From a plasmid, in sequence record NZ_CP136144.1: a stretch of DNA of 24,484 nucleotides. One strand, given 5' to 3'. Each line of letters opens with the position of its first letter. Within the stretch, counting starts at the first letter, position 1. Shown one piece after another: positions 5,889 to 12,898 of the stretch. The notes beneath the pieces are model-generated. The model saw nothing but the letters and a program-made list of their open reading frames with translations, did not search any database and had not been told where the DNA came from. Made by a program: the position numbers and the translations under genes.

Positions 5889-6533
5889 ATGACTTCAAAT
5901 GCACCAACAAGCTTTGTCCGCGCTTATCTGAGAGCTTCAACAGCAGAACAGGATGCTTCGCGTGCCCAGGAAACTATCGAGGCTTTTGCCAGGGAAAGAG
6001 GCCTGATTATTTGCAGCTACTATATTGAGAATGAATCCGGCTCCCGTCTTGAGCGCCCGGAACTTTTTCGTCTTCTGAGAGATTGCCAGCAAAATGATAT
6101 TTTGCTTATCGAGGATGTGGACAGACTTTCCCGCCTGTCAGGGGAAGACTGGAATACGCTGAAGAAAATGATCCGGCAGAAAGACATCCGGGTTATGGCG
6201 GTGAATGTGCCGACGACCTGGATTAATTCTGGTATGAGTGAGTTTGACAGTCGGTTGTTTGCAGCCATTAACGATATGCTGCTGGATATGCTGGCCGCTG
6301 TTGCCAGAAGGGACTATGAACAACGGCGGGAACGGCAGAAACAAGGGATAGAGAAAGCAAGGAAAGACGGCAAATATAAAGGGCGTAAACCTAATCAAGC
6401 CAGACATGATGCAATTATCAGGTTGATTGAGAGCGGAAGCTCCTGGACACAGGTACAGAAAATACTGGGGTGCAGCCGTGGCACAATAAGCAGTGCGCTA
6501 AAACGTAAAACCGGGCAGAAATCCAGTAAGTAG
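5889..6533 (+). CDS. Serine recombinase / resolvase (multimer resolution), 214 aa
   Basis: N-terminal catalytic motif YLRASTAEQD, C-terminal HTH (SWTQVQKILGCSRGTISSALKR). Transcribed divergently from parF. Palindrome gtgacaaggtcac at 5764-5776 may be a res subsite. Confidence 0.8.
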   Translation: MTSNAPTSFVRAYLRASTAEQDASRAQETIEAFARERGLIICSYYIENESGSRLERPELFRLLRDCQQNDILLIEDVDRLSRLSGEDWNTLKKMIRQKDIRVMAVNVPTTWINSGMSEFDSRLFAAINDMLLDMLAAVARRDYEQRRERQKQGIEKARKDGKYKGRKPNQARHDAIIRLIESGSSWTQVQKILGCSRGTISSALKRKTGQKSSK

Positions 6534-6636
6534 AGGGGGCTAATATATCTGAAAGGCAGGGTATTAACTCAGGAGGTTGGGTGTGTGGTGTTTAGTCAAT
6601 GTAATTGAATATTGTAACTAAAATATGGTTTTATTA

Positions 6637-6664
6637 AAGGCCGGAGGTGGTTAGCCCCCGGCCT
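6637..6664 (-). terminator. Stem-loop (aaggccgg...ccggcctt) downstream of the dinQ-like ORF
   Basis: 8-bp perfect stem. On the minus strand it is followed by TTTAATAAAA (imperfect U-tract). Confidence 0.35.
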
Positions 6665-6681
6665 TAGTTACGTCTCCGCCA

Positions 6682-6765
6682 TCAGCCCATCAACTGGAGA
6701 AGGTAGCGAATCAGTTCAAGAAGCGAGATTAGCGCCCCCAGAACGATGATTGCTTTATCAATCAT
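6682..6765 (-). CDS. dinQ: DinQ-like 27-aa hydrophobic peptide (type I toxin candidate): MIDKAIIVLGALISLLELIRYLLQLMG
   Basis: Manually translated 28-codon minus-strand ORF, absent from the track (<60 aa). Very close to my recollection of E. coli DinQ (MIDKAIIVLGALIALLELIRFLLQLLN). An inverted repeat CTCCAT-tat-ATGGAG sits immediately 5' of the start. Confidence 0.5.
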   Translation of the reverse strand: MIDKAIIVLGALISLLELIRYLLQLMG

Positions 6766-6838
6766 CCGTTTACTCCATTATATGGAGCAGACTCCCGATA
6801 CTTACTCTTACACTGCCTGTCATATCGGTTGTTCTTCG

Positions 6839-6875
6839 ATGTTGGTTGAAGACAGTTCCACTCCAGCCAGAGCAC
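6839..6875. repeat. Repeat unit 1 (atgttggttgaagacagttccactccagccagagcac)
   Basis: ~31/37 identity with 7026-7062. Candidate sRNA-like element. Confidence 0.4.
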
Positions 6876-7025
6876 TGACAACAGCACCACCTGTTTTTCA
6901 GCCAGGACTTAAAATCGCTTAATCCTTGCGGGAAGGCTGGAGTTATAACGGTTCAGAACCAACCAGCGTATTATACGCATAAGCGGATACGGTTGCATTC
7001 CATATCATGTAGACATATTATGTCT

Positions 7026-7062
7026 ATGTTGGTTGAAGAGAGTTCTTCTCCAGCCAGAGCCA
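7026..7062. repeat. Repeat unit 2 (atgttggttgaagagagttcttctccagccagagcca), preceded by palindrome tagacatattatgtcta
   Basis: Direct repeat of 6839-6875, immediately upstream of a strong terminator. Confidence 0.4.
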
Positions 7063-7080
7063 CCAACTCAAGGCTGGAAA

Positions 7081-7119
7081 GCACAAAAAAGCCCGATTAG
7101 CAGTCGGGTTTTTTTGTGC
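7081..7119. terminator. Bidirectional rho-independent terminator (gcacaaaaaagcccgattagcagtcgggtttttttgtgc)
   Basis: Perfect stem cccga/tcggg flanked by an A-run on one side and a T-run on the other. The whole element is palindromic. Confidence 0.6.
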
Positions 7120-7707
7120 CTGTTGTTCAGTTGTACTTCCGTTTTTTCCCCTTCATTTGAGGGATTTTTCTTTCATTTTTTGTTGCGGCCAATACTGCTG
7201 ATCGCGTAGGCCAACAGAACGATGCCGTTACCGGCATTATCATGAATCCCGTTTTTTCAGTAAGTTGCAGCATACAAAGTAATTAAAAAAACGTCATTTC
7301 TTGTTGATGTATGCAGTAGCGGTGGTGCGCTACGTGAAATCTGGAAAATGTTGGCGGGTAAGTGACTCAATTTTTTAATCTCCGCACCTGTTTTTCTGGA
7401 CGTGCCAGCAATTATGACCTGAAGCAGAGGTGCGTCCGACAACAAGAATTCCGATCACCAAAAAAAAATTTGGACATTTTTTCCGATAATGCATTTTTGT
7501 CAGAGGAATATGAACGACAGGGCAGGGTGAAAAGGAAGCGGTTATCCTGAATAACCCAGGATATGGGCACATATGCCGGAACAGGGCACCAGATAAAGGA
7601 ACAGAACATGTGAATGTTGTAACTAATGAGGTATGGACAGAATCACCTGAATGTCCAAGTGTGCGAGGAATTAAACAAGGGGCGTAAAAAAAGCCGCTTA
7701 CGCAGCC

Positions 7708-7919: not shown

Positions 7920-10900
7920 TTAAGCAACGTTTTCTGCCTCTGACGCCTCTTTTAATGGTCTCAGATGTCCTTTGGTCACCAGTTCTGCCAGCGTGAAGGA
8001 ATAATGGCCGAGCATATTGATATGTCCGTGGCAAAGCGGGGAGAGGCGTGCGATATCTTCATCATTCAGTGTTTCACCCTGCGCCCGGAGATGATCCAGG
8101 GCTGCCTGCATATAAATAGTGTTCCATAACACGACGGCGTTAGTGACCAGCCCCAGTGTGCCCAGTTGATCTTCCTGACCGTCGGTATATCGTTTTCTTA
8201 TCTCACCTTTTTGACCGTGACAGATGGCTCTGGCAACGGCATGGCGACTTTCTCCCCGATTAAGCTGGGTCAGAATGCGCCGGCGGTAATCTTCATCATC
8301 AATATAATTAAGCAGATACAGCGTTTTGTTGATGCGCCCCACTTCAATGATTGCCTGAGTCAGTCCGGAAGGACGTTCACTTTTCAGCAATGAACGGACC
8401 AGCACTGAAACCTGTACTTTGCCCAGCTTCAGGGAGCCAGCGGTCCGGATCATTTCGTCCCACTGAAGGACTATTTTTCGGGGATCTGATTGCCCTCTGG
8501 CAATATCATTCAGCACGCCATAGTCGGCATCATGGTCCATTCGCCAGAAAACCGAAGCACCGGCATCAGCCAGGCGTGGAGAAAACTGGTATCCCAGCAG
8601 CCAGAAAAGGCCAAAGACAAGTTCGCTGGCACCTGCTGTATCGGTCATAATTTCGGTTGGATTCAGCCCGGTCTCCTGTTCCAGAAGACCTTCCAGCACA
8701 AAGATAGAGTCCCTCAGCGTCCCCGGTATAACGATGCCATGAAAGCCGGAATACTGATCGGACACAAAGTTGTACCAGGTGATCCCTCTGTTATTACCAA
8801 AGTATTTGCGGTTCGGTCCGGCATTGATTGTTCTGACTGGCGTAACAAAGCGCATTCCATCTGCAGATGCCACTTCTCCTCCACCCCATATCTGTGCCAG
8901 TGGCAGCGTTGCCTGAAAATCAACCAGTCTGGCATTAGCGCTGGTGATAGTTTCAGCCCGCAGATAGTTCGCTTTTGTCCAGTTCAGCCGGTGTCGGGTC
9001 AGTGCAGGAACATTTGATCTGATCAGTGGTTCCAGACCGATATTGCAGGCTTCAGCCATCAGCACGGCGCTGATGCTGACGGGCAGATCATCAACTCTGG
9101 CACTGGCTTCACTAGCATGGAAAAACTCATCAGCAAATCCGGTATGGGCGTTAATTTCGAGCAGCAACTCCGTTAAATCCACCGGAGGGAGTAGATCACT
9201 GATCATTTTGCTCAGTCGTTTCAGACTGTCCGGCTCATCAAGACTGGCGAGGGGAGAAATTGTCAACCGGGGCTTCGGGCCAGAAACATCGAGTTCGACA
9301 GCCTCATTTTCGCAAAGACGTGCAGCAACCTGTCTGTAACGACTATCAAGCTGATGACCCAGAGATTTTATTGCTTCCTGCGGGTCTGTCGGGTGCCCCA
9401 AAGAACGATAAACCTTAATCCGGTTTGCCTGCCAGTCAGCACCCTGTAGTAATCTTGCACGAGGATCTCCCCACCGGTTACTGCCGGTAACGTAGACATC
9501 CCTCCGCCTCAGACTATCCTGCAGTTTACTGAGAAAGCAGAGCGTGTATCCCCTGCGGGTGATATGTTTTTCCTTGTTAATCACCAGCCGTTTCCATGAC
9601 CGACTGATAATTTCCGTTGGTGCGTCGTCAAAAAACTGCCGCCGTGAGCTGAACTCCCGGCTGAGGTAGTCACAGGCATTCAGAGTGGTAACCCCGGCAG
9701 GTGCGGATGAAAATTTAACGGTATTCAGCAGATGGGGCAGGAAACGACGAACGCGCCCGTACTGCTCCACCATTTCTTCATGAAAATTATCGTCTGAGGG
9801 CCGGGCAATTTCACGGACAAGCGTGATGATTTCAGCCAGCTTTTGCCTTGGGATGTAGCTGAACACCTCAGCACGAATCGATTCGTCCGGTGTTTCTTCT
9901 TTCAGCAGGTACGAACATGCGCTGGCGAGCGCCAATGCAGATTTATCCAGATCCTTCAGCGAGCGGAGCCGTTTTTTCTGCCCAATCTTTCTGGCGTCAC
10001 GGATGATAACGGCCAGCATGGCGTCCAGAACGTCCAATGCATCATCCAGCGCCAGCGTTTCCCATGCAAGGACAAAGGCAACCAGAACCGCCATCCTTTT
10101 CTGCGGTGACATCCTGGCAATATTGAACACCGAAGTCATACCAGCATAACGTGCGAGATTTTTCAGGCGCACAGCCGGGAGTGTACTCAGGTTTTCAGCA
10201 TGCAGGCCAAAATCGTTCAGAGTTTTCCAGCGTTCAATTGCTTCATTAAACGCCGGACCACTGATGGTCACAGGGCCCTTTTTCAGTGATTCCAGTAAAG
10301 ACAGGCGGCTGCAATCAGTTGGCCCCAGCAGCATCTCCAGCTGTGAACGCTGTTCGGCTGACGGTATCAGTGCCAGTTTGTTCCACAGGCGCAACGTCGC
10401 CTTTTCCCTTACCTCTGAAATCAACCGGGTCAGCGTAGTGGCTCCGGGGAGAATAATACGATGTTGCATAAGCCACCCTGTCGCCAGATCGAAAAGCAGG
10501 CCAGGACGTTCGTTGCTTATCCAGCTCCGGGTATATAAAAGACGGGTAAGGCGAAATGTCCAGGGCCAGGCAAATTCACGATACTGATAGTGCTGACGTA
10601 TCAGCGCTGCATGCTCACGGCGGGTATTTTCCCTCTGACCGTATTCTGCAAGAACGGTGATATCACGAATCCCGAGCTGTCTGGCGGTAAAATGCCGGAC
10701 GCCGGAAGGAATATGATTCATATCGGTGAGGAAGGTGCCCAGAAAACGGACACATCCAATTTGCAGGGCAATGCCCAGACGGTTGTGATCACCTCTGCTT
10801 TTTCCGATAAATTCCTTGTCTGCTTCATCAAGGTGAAAATATCGTGCCAGCTGAAGCTCATCCGGTTCACCGGTGAATCTGCCATAGCTTTCAGTCTGCT

Positions 10901-10925
10901 CAGTGGTCAGAAAGTCAACGGGCAT
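7920..10925 (-). CDS. tnpA: Tn3-family transposase TnpA, 1001 aa
   Basis: Track ORF 7920-11084. True start is MPVDFLTTEQ at 10925. Typical Tn3 TnpA sequence. Confidence 0.9.
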   Translation of the reverse strand: MPVDFLTTEQTESYGRFTGEPDELQLARYFHLDEADKEFIGKSRGDHNRLGIALQIGCVRFLGTFLTDMNHIPSGVRHFTARQLGIRDITVLAEYGQRENTRREHAALIRQHYQYREFAWPWTFRLTRLLYTRSWISNERPGLLFDLATGWLMQHRIILPGATTLTRLISEVREKATLRLWNKLALIPSAEQRSQLEMLLGPTDCSRLSLLESLKKGPVTISGPAFNEAIERWKTLNDFGLHAENLSTLPAVRLKNLARYAGMTSVFNIARMSPQKRMAVLVAFVLAWETLALDDALDVLDAMLAVIIRDARKIGQKKRLRSLKDLDKSALALASACSYLLKEETPDESIRAEVFSYIPRQKLAEIITLVREIARPSDDNFHEEMVEQYGRVRRFLPHLLNTVKFSSAPAGVTTLNACDYLSREFSSRRQFFDDAPTEIISRSWKRLVINKEKHITRRGYTLCFLSKLQDSLRRRDVYVTGSNRWGDPRARLLQGADWQANRIKVYRSLGHPTDPQEAIKSLGHQLDSRYRQVAARLCENEAVELDVSGPKPRLTISPLASLDEPDSLKRLSKMISDLLPPVDLTELLLEINAHTGFADEFFHASEASARVDDLPVSISAVLMAEACNIGLEPLIRSNVPALTRHRLNWTKANYLRAETITSANARLVDFQATLPLAQIWGGGEVASADGMRFVTPVRTINAGPNRKYFGNNRGITWYNFVSDQYSGFHGIVIPGTLRDSIFVLEGLLEQETGLNPTEIMTDTAGASELVFGLFWLLGYQFSPRLADAGASVFWRMDHDADYGVLNDIARGQSDPRKIVLQWDEMIRTAGSLKLGKVQVSVLVRSLLKSERPSGLTQAIIEVGRINKTLYLLNYIDDEDYRRRILTQLNRGESRHAVARAICHGQKGEIRKRYTDGQEDQLGTLGLVTNAVVLWNTIYMQAALDHLRAQGETLNDEDIARLSPLCHGHINMLGHYSFTLAELVTKGHLRPLKEASEAENVA

Positions 10926-11646
<721 letters not shown>

Positions 11647-12689: not shown

Positions 12690-12898
12690 CTGTCAGACCA
12701 AGTTTACTCATATATACTTTAGATTGATTTAAAACTTCATTTTTAATTTAAAAGGATCTAGGTGAAGATCCTTTTTGATAATCTCATGACCAAAATCCCT
12801 TAACGTGAGTTTTCGTTCCACTGAGCGTCAGACCCCTAAAAGAACTTTCCGCTAAGCGATAGACTGTATGTAAACACAGTATTGCAAGGACGCGGAAC

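What the first reader, a model, noticed from the sequence alone, without database searches (positions are those of the whole stretch)
6682..7119. DinQ-like type I toxin ORF with adjacent paired repeats and a bidirectional terminator: candidate plasmid type I TA locus
- **Toxin ORF.** A 27-aa ORF (minus strand, 6682-6765) encodes MIDKAIIVLGALISLLELIRYLLQLMG. This is an amphipathic single-helix peptide nearly identical to my recollection of chromosomal DinQ. A perfect hairpin CTCCAT-tat-ATGGAG abuts its start codon, which could occlude the RBS.
- **Neighbouring repeats.** 70-350 bp away lie two ~37-bp direct repeats (6839-6875 and 7026-7062). The second is preceded by a palindrome and followed by a strong terminator. 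This recalls the duplicated agrA/agrB antisense sRNAs next to chromosomal dinQ.
- **Function and caveat.** Together with parFG/resolvase, this would serve as a post-segregational-killing element. Complementarity between the repeats and the toxin mRNA is only ~9-11 nt by eye.
Basis: partly seen in the sequence, partly recalled or inferred. Interest (0 to 1): 0.6.

Follow-up and report, generated by a model that had tools for sequence, protein, structure and literature searches.

The report
Plasmid dinQ/agrB type I toxin-antitoxin
This is an intact plasmid copy of the already described dinQ/agrB toxin-antitoxin module, a 27-residue membrane toxin kept silent by a small antisense RNA; it is real and well formed, but ordinary and already annotated in public databases.

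Summary
The 27-aa ORF (6682-6765, minus strand) passes NCBI's DinQ model: 55.5 bits against a cut-off of 30. RefSeq annotates it as dinQ on an IncX1 plasmid that is identical over the 641 bases compared.

The anatomy, however, was misread.
- **Repeat 2** (7023-7060) is the 5' end of a single AgrB-like sRNA. Rfam RF02891 matches 7029-7116 on the plus strand at 63.4 bits (gathering score 40).
- **Repeat 1** (6836-6873) is not a second sRNA. It lies inside the toxin's 5' UTR and is the antisense target.
- **Complementarity** is therefore 34 base pairs (-61.7 kcal/mol), not 9-11 nt. It equals chromosomal agrB:dinQ (-62.8).
- **The target site** ends 72 nt upstream of the start codon, exactly as in the chromosome.
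- **The CTCCAT/ATGGAG hairpin** is the family's experimentally established SD-sequestering hairpin.

Compared with chromosomal dinQ, this copy has no LexA box, no agrA paralogue, a consensus TATAAT -10 and an ATG start.

Related plasmid DqlB/agrB loci were shown to be addiction modules in 2025, so this is already known.

One side observation: in about three quarters of PLSDB plasmids carrying this dinQ allele, the segment holding both promoters is missing. In all six that I sampled, recombination between the two repeats had deleted it.

The parts
6637..6665 (-). Predicted dinQ transcription terminator: an 11-bp GC-rich stem-loop followed by UUUAAUAAAACC.
   Evidence: Fold. It aligns with the chromosomal dinQ terminator. 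The simple terminator scan did not flag it because the T tail is weak.
6682..6765 (-). Toxin gene dinQ: 27 aa, ATG start, single hydrophobic helix.
   Evidence: ORF. NCBIfam toxin_DinQ NF041472 scores 55.5 bits against a cut-off of 30; the DqlB model scores only 14.3. RefSeq annotates dinQ, WP_000565612.1, at the same coordinates on NZ_CP047580.1.
6773..6787 (-). SD-sequestering hairpin, 'hairpin 3:4' of the dinQ model. The SD GGAG is at 6773-6776.
   Evidence: Sequence. It aligns with A182-G187 and U167-U178 of chromosomal dinQ mRNA. The local fold is -10.3 kcal/mol against -6.2 to -7.0 for the chromosomal hairpin. It is conserved with compensating changes in 13 loci.
6838..6876 (-). Antisense target site in the toxin 5' UTR.
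   Evidence: Aligns with G88-A119 of dinQ mRNA. It forms a 34-pair duplex with the sRNA 5' end at -61.7 kcal/mol. The site ends 72 nt upstream of the start codon, as in the chromosome.
6936..6948 (-). 'Sequence 1' equivalent: the 5'-proximal element that can pair with sequence 2 in the full-length mRNA.
   Evidence: Alignment mapping. The 1:2 duplex is -20.6 kcal/mol, with one compensatory G-C to A-U change relative to the chromosome.
6963..6998 (-). Predicted dinQ promoter and start site: +1 at 6963, -10 TATAAT at 6975..6970, and -35 ATGCAA at 6998..6993. There is no LexA box.
   Evidence: Alignment to the chromosomal +1 (L002:1798), which I fixed by matching all the landmarks published in PMC5066626. 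There is no CTG-N10-CAG between 6766 and 7030. The assignment is inferred; no transcript was mapped.
6993..7021 (+). Predicted sRNA promoter: TTGCAT (6993-6998), 17 bp, TATTAT (7016-7021). Its -35 hexamer occupies the same 6 bp as the dinQ -35 on the other strand.
   Evidence: Both hexamers sit at the same positions in 14 sRNA copies from the window, the chromosome and the plasmid loci. The site falls below the consensus-scan threshold.
7010..7026 (.). 17-bp perfect palindrome TAGACATATTATGTCTA overlapping the sRNA -10. Its role is unknown.
   Evidence: It is not conserved in the other loci examined.
7029..7119 (+). AgrB-like antitoxin sRNA. It comprises a 5' antisense segment (about 7026-7062, 'repeat 2'), an internal stem-loop, and a terminator with bidirectional symmetry (7081-7119).
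   Evidence: Rfam RF02891 AgrB scores 63.4 bits (gathering score 40), E = 6.7e-10, over the full model 1-84. The fold is -43.4 kcal/mol, z = -6.9. The terminator is shown.

Best explanation
The region 6632-7119 is an intact dinQ/agrB-family type I toxin-antitoxin module on an IncX1 plasmid backbone.

Inferred by homology:
- The minus strand is transcribed from a LexA-independent sigma-70 promoter (+1 about 6963) into a roughly 330-nt mRNA.
- Its 27-aa ORF encodes a membrane-active toxin.
- Its Shine-Dalgarno sequence is locked in a hairpin (6773-6787).

Shown by family models and by base-pairing computed here:
- The plus strand gives, from a back-to-back promoter, an AgrB-like sRNA of about 90 nt (7029-7119).
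- The first 35 or so nucleotides of the sRNA are a diverged direct-repeat copy of a UTR segment.
- They therefore pair over 34 bp with the toxin 5' UTR, 72 nt upstream of the start codon.

By analogy with chromosomal dinQ/agrB, pairing would sequester the UTR element that otherwise opens the SD hairpin and would trigger RNase III cleavage, so no toxin is made while the sRNA is replenished.

By analogy with the validated plasmid DqlB/agrB systems, loss of the plasmid would stop sRNA supply, and the longer-lived toxin mRNA would kill or arrest plasmid-free segregants. This would complement the neighbouring ParF/ParG partition genes and the resolvase. That last step is inferred and untested for this allele.
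For: - Toxin identity: the NCBIfam DinQ equivalog scores 55.5 bits against a cut-off of 30, 23 of 27 residues are identical to chromosomal DinQ, and RefSeq annotates the ORF as dinQ.
- sRNA identity: Rfam AgrB matches at 63.4 bits against a gathering score of 40, over the full length.
- Colinear homology with the chromosomal locus runs from terminator to sRNA terminator, at 82% mean column identity on the mRNA side.
- All the published mRNA landmarks map onto the window.
- The cognate duplex is -61.7 kcal/mol with 34 pairs. Shuffled sRNA gives -25.4 +/- 3.1 with a minimum of -39.4.
- Across 13 loci, cognate pairs average -58.6 and non-cognate pairs -39.0 +/- 8.4. The target always ends 68-75 nt upstream of the start codon, so sRNA and target co-vary.
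- The SD hairpin is conserved with compensating changes.
- The sRNA promoter hexamers are positionally conserved.
- Mechanism in the chromosomal system: PMC3567139 and PMC5066626.
- Toxicity, rescue by agrB and plasmid stabilisation for plasmid DqlB/agrB: PMC12365149 (pOXA-48) and PMC12317039 (IncX3 pOXA-484).
- Context: ParA/ParG and a resolvase lie immediately upstream, and the replicon is typed IncX1.
Against: - No transcript, toxicity or stability data exist for this allele.
- Thermodynamic folding predicts the SD hairpin stays closed (P unpaired about 0) after almost every 5' truncation tested. The exception is a form starting about 100 nt upstream of the start codon, where it reaches 0.42.
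- The chromosomal switch, by contrast, is reproduced in silico.
- The same negative result is seen for an IncX3 dqlB locus (L008), so this test is weak either way.
- The generic promoter scan found no site above its threshold.
- About three quarters of plasmids carrying this dinQ allele lack the segment that holds both promoters, and all six sampled had lost it by a repeat-to-repeat deletion. The module is therefore dispensable for IncX1 persistence.
- E. coli chromosomal AgrB retains 15 Watson-Crick pairs plus one G-U, contiguous, with the plasmid UTR at about -37 kcal/mol. This could blunt killing in E. coli hosts.
Confidence: 0.85

Rival explanations
1. It is a damage-inducible (SOS) toxin like chromosomal dinQ, as the RefSeq product name says. 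LexA would repress it, and it would act during DNA damage rather than in plasmid maintenance.
For: The RefSeq product name is 'damage-inducible type I toxin DinQ', and the peptide is close to chromosomal DinQ. A LexA-like motif was proposed at -119 of a plasmid dqlB (PMC12211044).
Against: - There is no CTG-N10-CAG anywhere between the start codon and the sRNA.
- The chromosomal operator CTGTATGATTATCCAG aligns to C-GTATAATACGCTGG, so both half-sites are lost.
- The counterpart of the proposed dqlB motif is at 6891-6905 and has 9-nt rather than 10-nt spacing. It also lies inside the transcribed UTR, within a conserved stem.
Confidence: 0.04
2. Both repeats are 5' ends of antisense sRNA genes, a duplicated agrA/agrB pair.
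For: Two direct repeats match at 34 of 38 positions. The chromosome does carry two tandem sRNA genes.
Against: - Rfam finds only one AgrB match in the whole window.
- Repeat 1 has no terminator downstream, and its similarity to the sRNAs stops just after the repeat, whereas the sRNAs share about 50 further bases through their terminators.
- Repeat 1 aligns with the AgrB-binding site inside the dinQ 5' UTR.
- It sits at the family-constant distance from the start codon.
Confidence: 0.02
3. The locus is a silent or decaying relic that no longer makes toxin.
For: The SD hairpin is stronger than in the chromosome and is predicted never to open after early 5' truncations. Most plasmids with this dinQ allele lack the promoter-bearing segment, and the six sampled carry a promoter-less deletion derivative. 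Selection for the module is therefore weak.
Against: - In the window every element is intact: ORF, SD, target site, both promoters with a consensus TATAAT, and both terminators.
- The sRNA and its target retain 34 pairs, which mutation would erode without selection.
- The inter-repeat segment is kept in 71 PLSDB records, at 95-100% identity in 70 of them.
- An IncX3 dqlB locus (L008) gives the same in-silico picture, so the folding result carries little weight. L008 is in the same Inc group as the validated pOXA-484, but its identity to the validated locus was not checked.
Confidence: 0.1
4. The module is functional but its main role is not segregational killing. It might act in abortive infection against phage or in competition between co-resident plasmids.
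For: Type I and other TA modules have been given such roles in general (my own background knowledge). The sRNA specificities differ between Inc groups, which is compatible with plasmid-plasmid competition.
Against: Nothing in the sequence points to it. The only functional data for plasmid relatives show addiction and stabilisation (PMC12365149, PMC12317039).
Confidence: 0.05

Closest known systems
Escherichia coli chromosomal dinQ-agrAB (arsR-gor intergenic region; Weel-Sneve 2013, PMC3567139; Kristiansen 2016, PMC5066626)
   Same: - 27-aa toxin, 23 of 27 residues identical.
- Colinear mRNA with the same SD hairpin and the same position of the antisense site (72 nt upstream of the start codon).
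- A divergent, non-overlapping sRNA with a 5' antisense segment, an internal stem-loop and an A-run/T-run terminator.
- Equal duplex strength, -61.7 against -62.8 kcal/mol.
   Different: - No LexA operator.
- One sRNA instead of two.
- ATG rather than GTG start, and a TATAAT rather than TATGAT -10.
- A stronger SD hairpin.
- The distal half of the antisense segment has been rewritten on both partners, so cross-pairing drops to about -37 kcal/mol.
- It sits on a plasmid next to partition and resolvase genes.
Plasmid DqlB/agrB addiction modules (pOXA-48 IncL, PMC12365149; pOXA-484 IncX3, PMC12317039)
   Same: - Same family and same architecture on conjugative plasmids.
- A single AgrB-like sRNA, with about 35 nt of complementarity to the toxin 5' UTR.
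- The module occupies the same backbone slot after the resolvase gene in some IncX1 plasmids (L005).
- For these relatives, toxicity, antitoxin rescue and plasmid stabilisation were shown experimentally.
   Different: - The toxin here is the 27-aa DinQ type rather than the 31-aa DqlB type. The DqlB model scores only 14.3 bits against a cut-off of 35.
- DNA similarity to the dqlB loci is about 70-80%.
- The antisense specificity differs.
tisB/istR-1 of E. coli
   Same: A small hydrophobic toxin and a divergent trans-acting sRNA that pairs in a long 5' UTR. The primary transcript is inactive and is activated by 5' processing (as discussed in PMC5066626).
   Different: There is no sequence relationship. 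tisB is LexA-controlled and uses a ribosome standby site rather than an SD hairpin switch.
hok/sok of plasmid R1
   Same: A plasmid type I module that kills plasmid-free segregants. Translation is locked by mRNA folding and released by processing.
   Different: Sok is a cis-encoded overlapping antisense RNA and activation is by 3' processing. The families are unrelated. Rfam sok matches occur in other plasmid loci I fetched but not in this window.

Membership tests
dinQ/agrB (DinQ-Dql) type I toxin-antitoxin family | Toxin is a 27-31 aa single-helix hydrophobic peptide recognised by the curated DinQ or DqlB models. | tested here: met
   NF041472 toxin_DinQ scores 55.5 bits against a cut-off of 30.
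dinQ/agrB (DinQ-Dql) type I toxin-antitoxin family | An AgrB-type sRNA is encoded nearby on the opposite strand without overlapping the toxin gene. | tested here: met
   Rfam RF02891 matches 7029-7116 (+) at 63.4 bits against a gathering score of 40, with the full model matched. The sRNA starts 264 nt from the toxin start codon.
dinQ/agrB (DinQ-Dql) type I toxin-antitoxin family | About 31-35 nt at the sRNA 5' end are complementary to the toxin 5' UTR upstream of the RBS. | tested here: met
   34 pairs at -61.7 kcal/mol. The site ends 72 nt upstream of the ATG, and the range is 68-75 nt in 13 loci.
dinQ/agrB (DinQ-Dql) type I toxin-antitoxin family | A hairpin sequesters the Shine-Dalgarno sequence (hairpin 3:4). 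| tested here: met
   CUCCAU-AUA-AUGGAG at 6773-6787, -10.3 kcal/mol. It is conserved with compensating changes across the loci.
dinQ/agrB (DinQ-Dql) type I toxin-antitoxin family | Mutually exclusive pairings 1:2, 2:3 and 3:4 open the SD after 5' processing. | tested here: inconclusive
   The elements are present, and the pairwise energies rank as in the chromosome: -20.6, -16.9 and -10.3 kcal/mol. Global folding does not open the SD after early truncations, although it does for the chromosomal mRNA.
dinQ/agrB (DinQ-Dql) type I toxin-antitoxin family | The peptide is toxic and the sRNA neutralises it. | not testable with these tools
   Shown only for chromosomal DinQ (PMC3567139) and plasmid DqlB (PMC12365149, PMC12317039).
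dinQ sensu stricto (SOS regulon member) | A LexA operator overlaps the toxin promoter. | tested here: not met
   There is no CTG-N10-CAG between 6766 and 7030, and the aligned operator has lost both half-sites.
dinQ sensu stricto (SOS regulon member) | Tandem agrA and agrB sRNA genes. | tested here: not met
   One AgrB match in the window against two in the chromosomal locus.
Plasmid post-segregational killing module | Stabilises its replicon by killing plasmid-free segregants, with an unstable antitoxin and a stable toxin mRNA. | not testable with these tools
   The context is compatible: an IncX1 backbone with ParA/ParG and a resolvase adjacent. No half-life or stability data exist.

The most novel reading that the evidence does not exclude
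The direct repeat that gives a trans-encoded type I antitoxin its specificity is also a built-in recombination substrate. It removes the toxin promoter and the antitoxin promoter together, which would be a non-lethal exit from addiction.

- The toxin segment is present in 294 PLSDB plasmids, but the 147-bp inter-repeat segment is present in only 71.
- All six sampled short forms carry the exact 187-bp repeat-to-repeat deletion.
- The hybrid repeats are of two types, so there were at least two crossover points.
- The relic is still annotated as dinQ.

Taken together with the loss of LexA control and the retargeted antisense segment, the IncX1 allele would show a chromosomal SOS toxin converted into a plasmid addiction module and then repeatedly disarmed. 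I found no description of this in the papers I searched.
Probability: 0.3. Interest if true: 0.4.

Novelty: already known. Interest (0 to 1): 0.15.

Why it matters
As a finding it mainly confirms existing annotation.
- The dinQ/dql family, plasmid copies included, was defined in 2016.
- Plasmid relatives were shown to be addiction modules in 2025.
- RefSeq already labels this ORF.

Its practical value is modest.
- The sRNA gene is not annotated in the RefSeq record I examined.
- The product name 'damage-inducible' is probably misleading for the plasmid copy.
- Many annotated 'dinQ' genes on IncX1 resistance plasmids look like promoter-less relics. This matters when toxin-antitoxin content is counted from gene calls alone.

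Tried and rejected
- **Promoter scan.** The generic sigma-70 scan of 6500-7300 found nothing at its threshold. I assigned the promoters by alignment to the mapped chromosomal start sites and by positional conservation instead.
- **LexA control.** I searched for CTG-N10-CAG and for 20-mers resembling the consensus, and found none at the promoter. The motifs found in dqlB UTRs match the consensus poorly (8-12 of 20) and coincide with a conserved RNA stem, so I did not count them as operators.
- **In-silico test of the processing switch.** I tried full-length mRNA, the +44-equivalent form, all 5' truncations, UTR-only constructs and a blocked sRNA site. The chromosomal behaviour is reproduced but the window's is not. 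The IncX3 locus L008 behaves the same way, so the test cannot discriminate.
- **Full-length duplex prediction** was inflated by long-range spurious pairs: shuffles averaged -50.7. I replaced it with the 37-nt antisense segment.
- **Other Rfam matches** (Thr and Trp leaders, STnc420, BSR0739) are far below their gathering scores. The two leader matches sit on the sRNA terminator region, so I treated all four as chance.
- **Palindrome at 7010-7026.** It is not conserved in the other loci, so I propose no operator role.
- **Supplementary tables of PMC5066626** are not held, so I could not check whether this exact allele is among the 14 dql genes listed there.

Full report
**What is there**

- The minus-strand ORF at 6682-6765 encodes MIDKAIIVLGALISLLELIRYLLQLMG.
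- CTCCAT-tat-ATGGAG lies at 6773-6787. Its GGAG sits 7 nt from the ATG.
- Two direct repeats, 6836-6873 and 7023-7060, match at 34 of 38 positions. The best 38-mer match in 200 shuffles of the region was 26.
- A perfect 17-bp palindrome lies at 7010-7026.
- An 18-pair hairpin at 7081-7119, with an A-run before and a T-run after, scores as a terminator on both strands.

**Identity**

- The peptide matches NCBI's curated DinQ model NF041472 at 55.5 bits against a cut-off of 30. The sister DqlB model scores only 14.3 bits.
- Chromosomal DinQ, read from an E. coli chromosome (L002), differs at four positions besides the GTG initiator.
- Rfam's AgrB family RF02891 matches 7029-7116 on the plus strand over the full model, at 63.4 bits against a gathering score of 40. 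It is the only Rfam family above threshold in the whole window.
- The 641 bp around the finding are 100% identical to many plasmids of E. coli, Salmonella, Klebsiella and Shigella. RefSeq annotates the ORF on them as dinQ. These plasmids are typed IncX1.
- The module sits directly after the ParA/ParG partition genes and a resolvase gene.

- I aligned the window with the chromosomal arsR-gor region.
- I fixed the chromosomal dinQ +1 at L002:1798, the only position at which all the landmarks published in PMC5066626 read correctly. These are U16-C28, G94-G106, U167-U178, A182-G187, G88-A119, G5 and A40.
- Transferred through the alignment, the predicted start of the plasmid mRNA is 6963.
- Repeat 1 is the counterpart of the experimentally defined AgrB-binding site G88-A119 (window 6873-6842). 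The hairpin next to the start codon is the SD-sequestering 'hairpin 3:4'.
- Repeat 2 is the 5' end of the sRNA.
- Because the toxin mRNA is read from the minus strand and the sRNA from the plus strand, a direct repeat in the DNA produces antisense complementarity between the two RNAs.
- The duplex has 34 pairs at -61.7 kcal/mol. Chromosomal agrB:dinQ gives -62.8, and shuffled sRNA segments give -25.4 +/- 3.1 with a minimum of -39.4.
- There is only one sRNA gene. Repeat 1 has neither the terminator nor the downstream sequence that the sRNAs share.

**Comparative support**

- I fetched 12 further toxin/sRNA pairs from plasmids of several replicon types (IncX1, X3, X4, I-gamma/K1, K2/Z, F types) plus the chromosome. 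I located their sRNAs with Rfam.
- In a 13 x 13 matrix of toxin UTRs against sRNA 5' segments, cognate pairs average -58.6 kcal/mol and non-cognate pairs -39.0 +/- 8.4.
- The target site always ends 68-75 nt upstream of the start codon, and 72 nt in both the window and the chromosome.
- The distal half of the antisense segment differs between loci but changes on both partners together.
- The SD hairpin is present in all 13 toxin loci examined (a partly different set that includes the IncL/M locus L010), with compensating substitutions such as CUCCAG/CUGGAG and CUCCCUU/AAGGGA.
- The sRNA -35 and -10 hexamers sit at fixed positions in all 14 sRNA copies. In the window they read TTGCAT-17-TATTAT.

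**Differences from chromosomal dinQ**

- The LexA operator that overlaps the chromosomal promoter (CTGTATGATTATCCAG on the mRNA strand) aligns with C-GTATAATACGCTGG, so both half-sites are lost. No CTG-N10-CAG exists between the start codon and the sRNA.
- A LexA-like motif proposed for a plasmid dqlB at -119 (PMC12211044) has its counterpart at 6891-6905, but with 9-nt spacing and inside a conserved UTR stem.
- The predicted -10 is a consensus TATAAT, and the start codon is ATG rather than GTG.
- The SD hairpin is stronger, -10.3 against about -6 to -7 kcal/mol.
- There is no agrA paralogue.
- The two predicted -35 hexamers occupy the same six base pairs on opposite strands (6993-6998).
- These differences fit a constitutively transcribed plasmid module rather than an SOS gene. 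The product name 'damage-inducible' is probably inherited from the family model.

**Mechanism**

*Shown here:* family membership of both genes, colinearity with the studied locus, the strength, specificity and position of the RNA duplex, and conservation of the SD hairpin.

*Taken from experiments on relatives:*
- DinQ is a toxic inner-membrane peptide.
- The primary transcript is translationally inert.
- AgrB binding keeps the SD closed and directs RNase III cleavage (PMC3567139, PMC5066626).
- Plasmid DqlB/agrB loci are toxic, are rescued by agrB, kill after plasmid loss and stabilise a test plasmid (PMC12365149, PMC12317039).

*Inferred:* the window's module does the same.

*Unresolved:*
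- Thermodynamic folding reproduces the chromosomal switch. The probability that the SD is unpaired rises from 0.08 to 0.5-0.7 after 13-44 nt are removed.
- It predicts that the window's SD stays closed, except for a form starting about 100 nt upstream of the start codon, where the probability is 0.42.
- An IncX3 dqlB locus (L008) behaves the same way, so the test does not argue against function. The activating step nevertheless remains unknown.

**Side observations**

- *Deletion of both promoters.*
  - The toxin segment occurs in 294 PLSDB plasmids at 80% coverage or more, but the inter-repeat segment occurs in only 71.
  - All six short forms I fetched have a precise 187-bp deletion from repeat to repeat, which removes both promoters.
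  - The surviving hybrid repeat is of repeat-2 type in one plasmid and of repeat-1 type in five, so there are at least two crossover points.
  - The window carries the intact minority form.
- *Possible cross-talk.* E. coli chromosomal AgrB still forms 15 Watson-Crick pairs plus one G-U, contiguous, with the plasmid UTR over the element it must sequester, at about -37 kcal/mol. Partial cross-protection in E. coli hosts is therefore possible but untested.

**Verdict**

- This is a genuine, intact type I toxin-antitoxin module.
- It is already known. The family, including plasmid copies, was described in 2016. Plasmid relatives were validated in 2025, and one survey reported dqlB homologues in 53% of IncX plasmids (PMC12365149). 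The toxin gene is annotated in RefSeq.
- Interest is low.
- The repeat-mediated loss of both promoters is the only item that may be new.

Noticed in passing
window 6836-7060; loci L004 (938-1047) and L016-L020 (about 881-990): In about three quarters of PLSDB plasmids carrying this dinQ allele, the inter-repeat segment that holds both promoters is missing: 294 records carry the toxin segment and 71 the inter-repeat segment. All six sampled short forms have a 187-bp deletion exactly from repeat 1 to repeat 2. There are two types of hybrid repeat, so at least two crossover points. The relic is still annotated as dinQ.
   Followed up: partly
window 7010-7026: A perfect 17-bp palindrome, TAGACATATTATGTCTA, overlaps the predicted -10 of the sRNA promoter. 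It is absent from the other sRNA promoters compared, and its role is unknown.
   Followed up: partly
window 6993-6998: The predicted -35 hexamers of the toxin promoter (ATGCAA, minus strand) and the sRNA promoter (TTGCAT, plus strand) occupy the same six base pairs, so the two promoters might compete for RNA polymerase. In the chromosomal locus they appear to be adjacent rather than coincident (my reading of the sequence; not checked by a tool).
   Followed up: no
window 6842-6873 versus L002 2110-2145: Chromosomal AgrB and AgrA of E. coli keep a 15-17 bp contiguous match to the plasmid toxin UTR (about -37 to -38 kcal/mol), near the extreme of the shuffle distribution. Host sRNAs might therefore partly neutralise the plasmid toxin.
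   Followed up: partly
L005 745-2040 versus window 5889-7116: IncX1-type backbones carry either a DinQ-type (27 aa) or a DqlB-type (31 aa) toxin/sRNA cassette in the same slot immediately after the resolvase gene.
   Followed up: no
L013 219-1633; L015 391-1626: Some IncF and IncK2/Z plasmids carry two tandem dqlB loci. In L015 each toxin gene has its own AgrB-like sRNA with a distinct antisense specificity.
   Followed up: no
window 12864-12879: CTGTATGTAAACACAG is a good match to the LexA box core. The window holds 11 CTG-N10-CAG sites against 4.8 expected. I did not examine what lies downstream.
   Followed up: no
window 7329-7442 and 7920-11084: Past the sRNA terminator the backbone is broken by mobile-element remnants. 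One is an integrase fragment, annotated as a pseudogene in the near-identical plasmid p94EC-4. The other is a 1054-aa minus-strand ORF in a region where p94EC-4 has a different insertion; a Tn3-family transposase is my guess and was not checked. The window and p94EC-4 differ at many positions within the first 14.2 kb.
   Followed up: no
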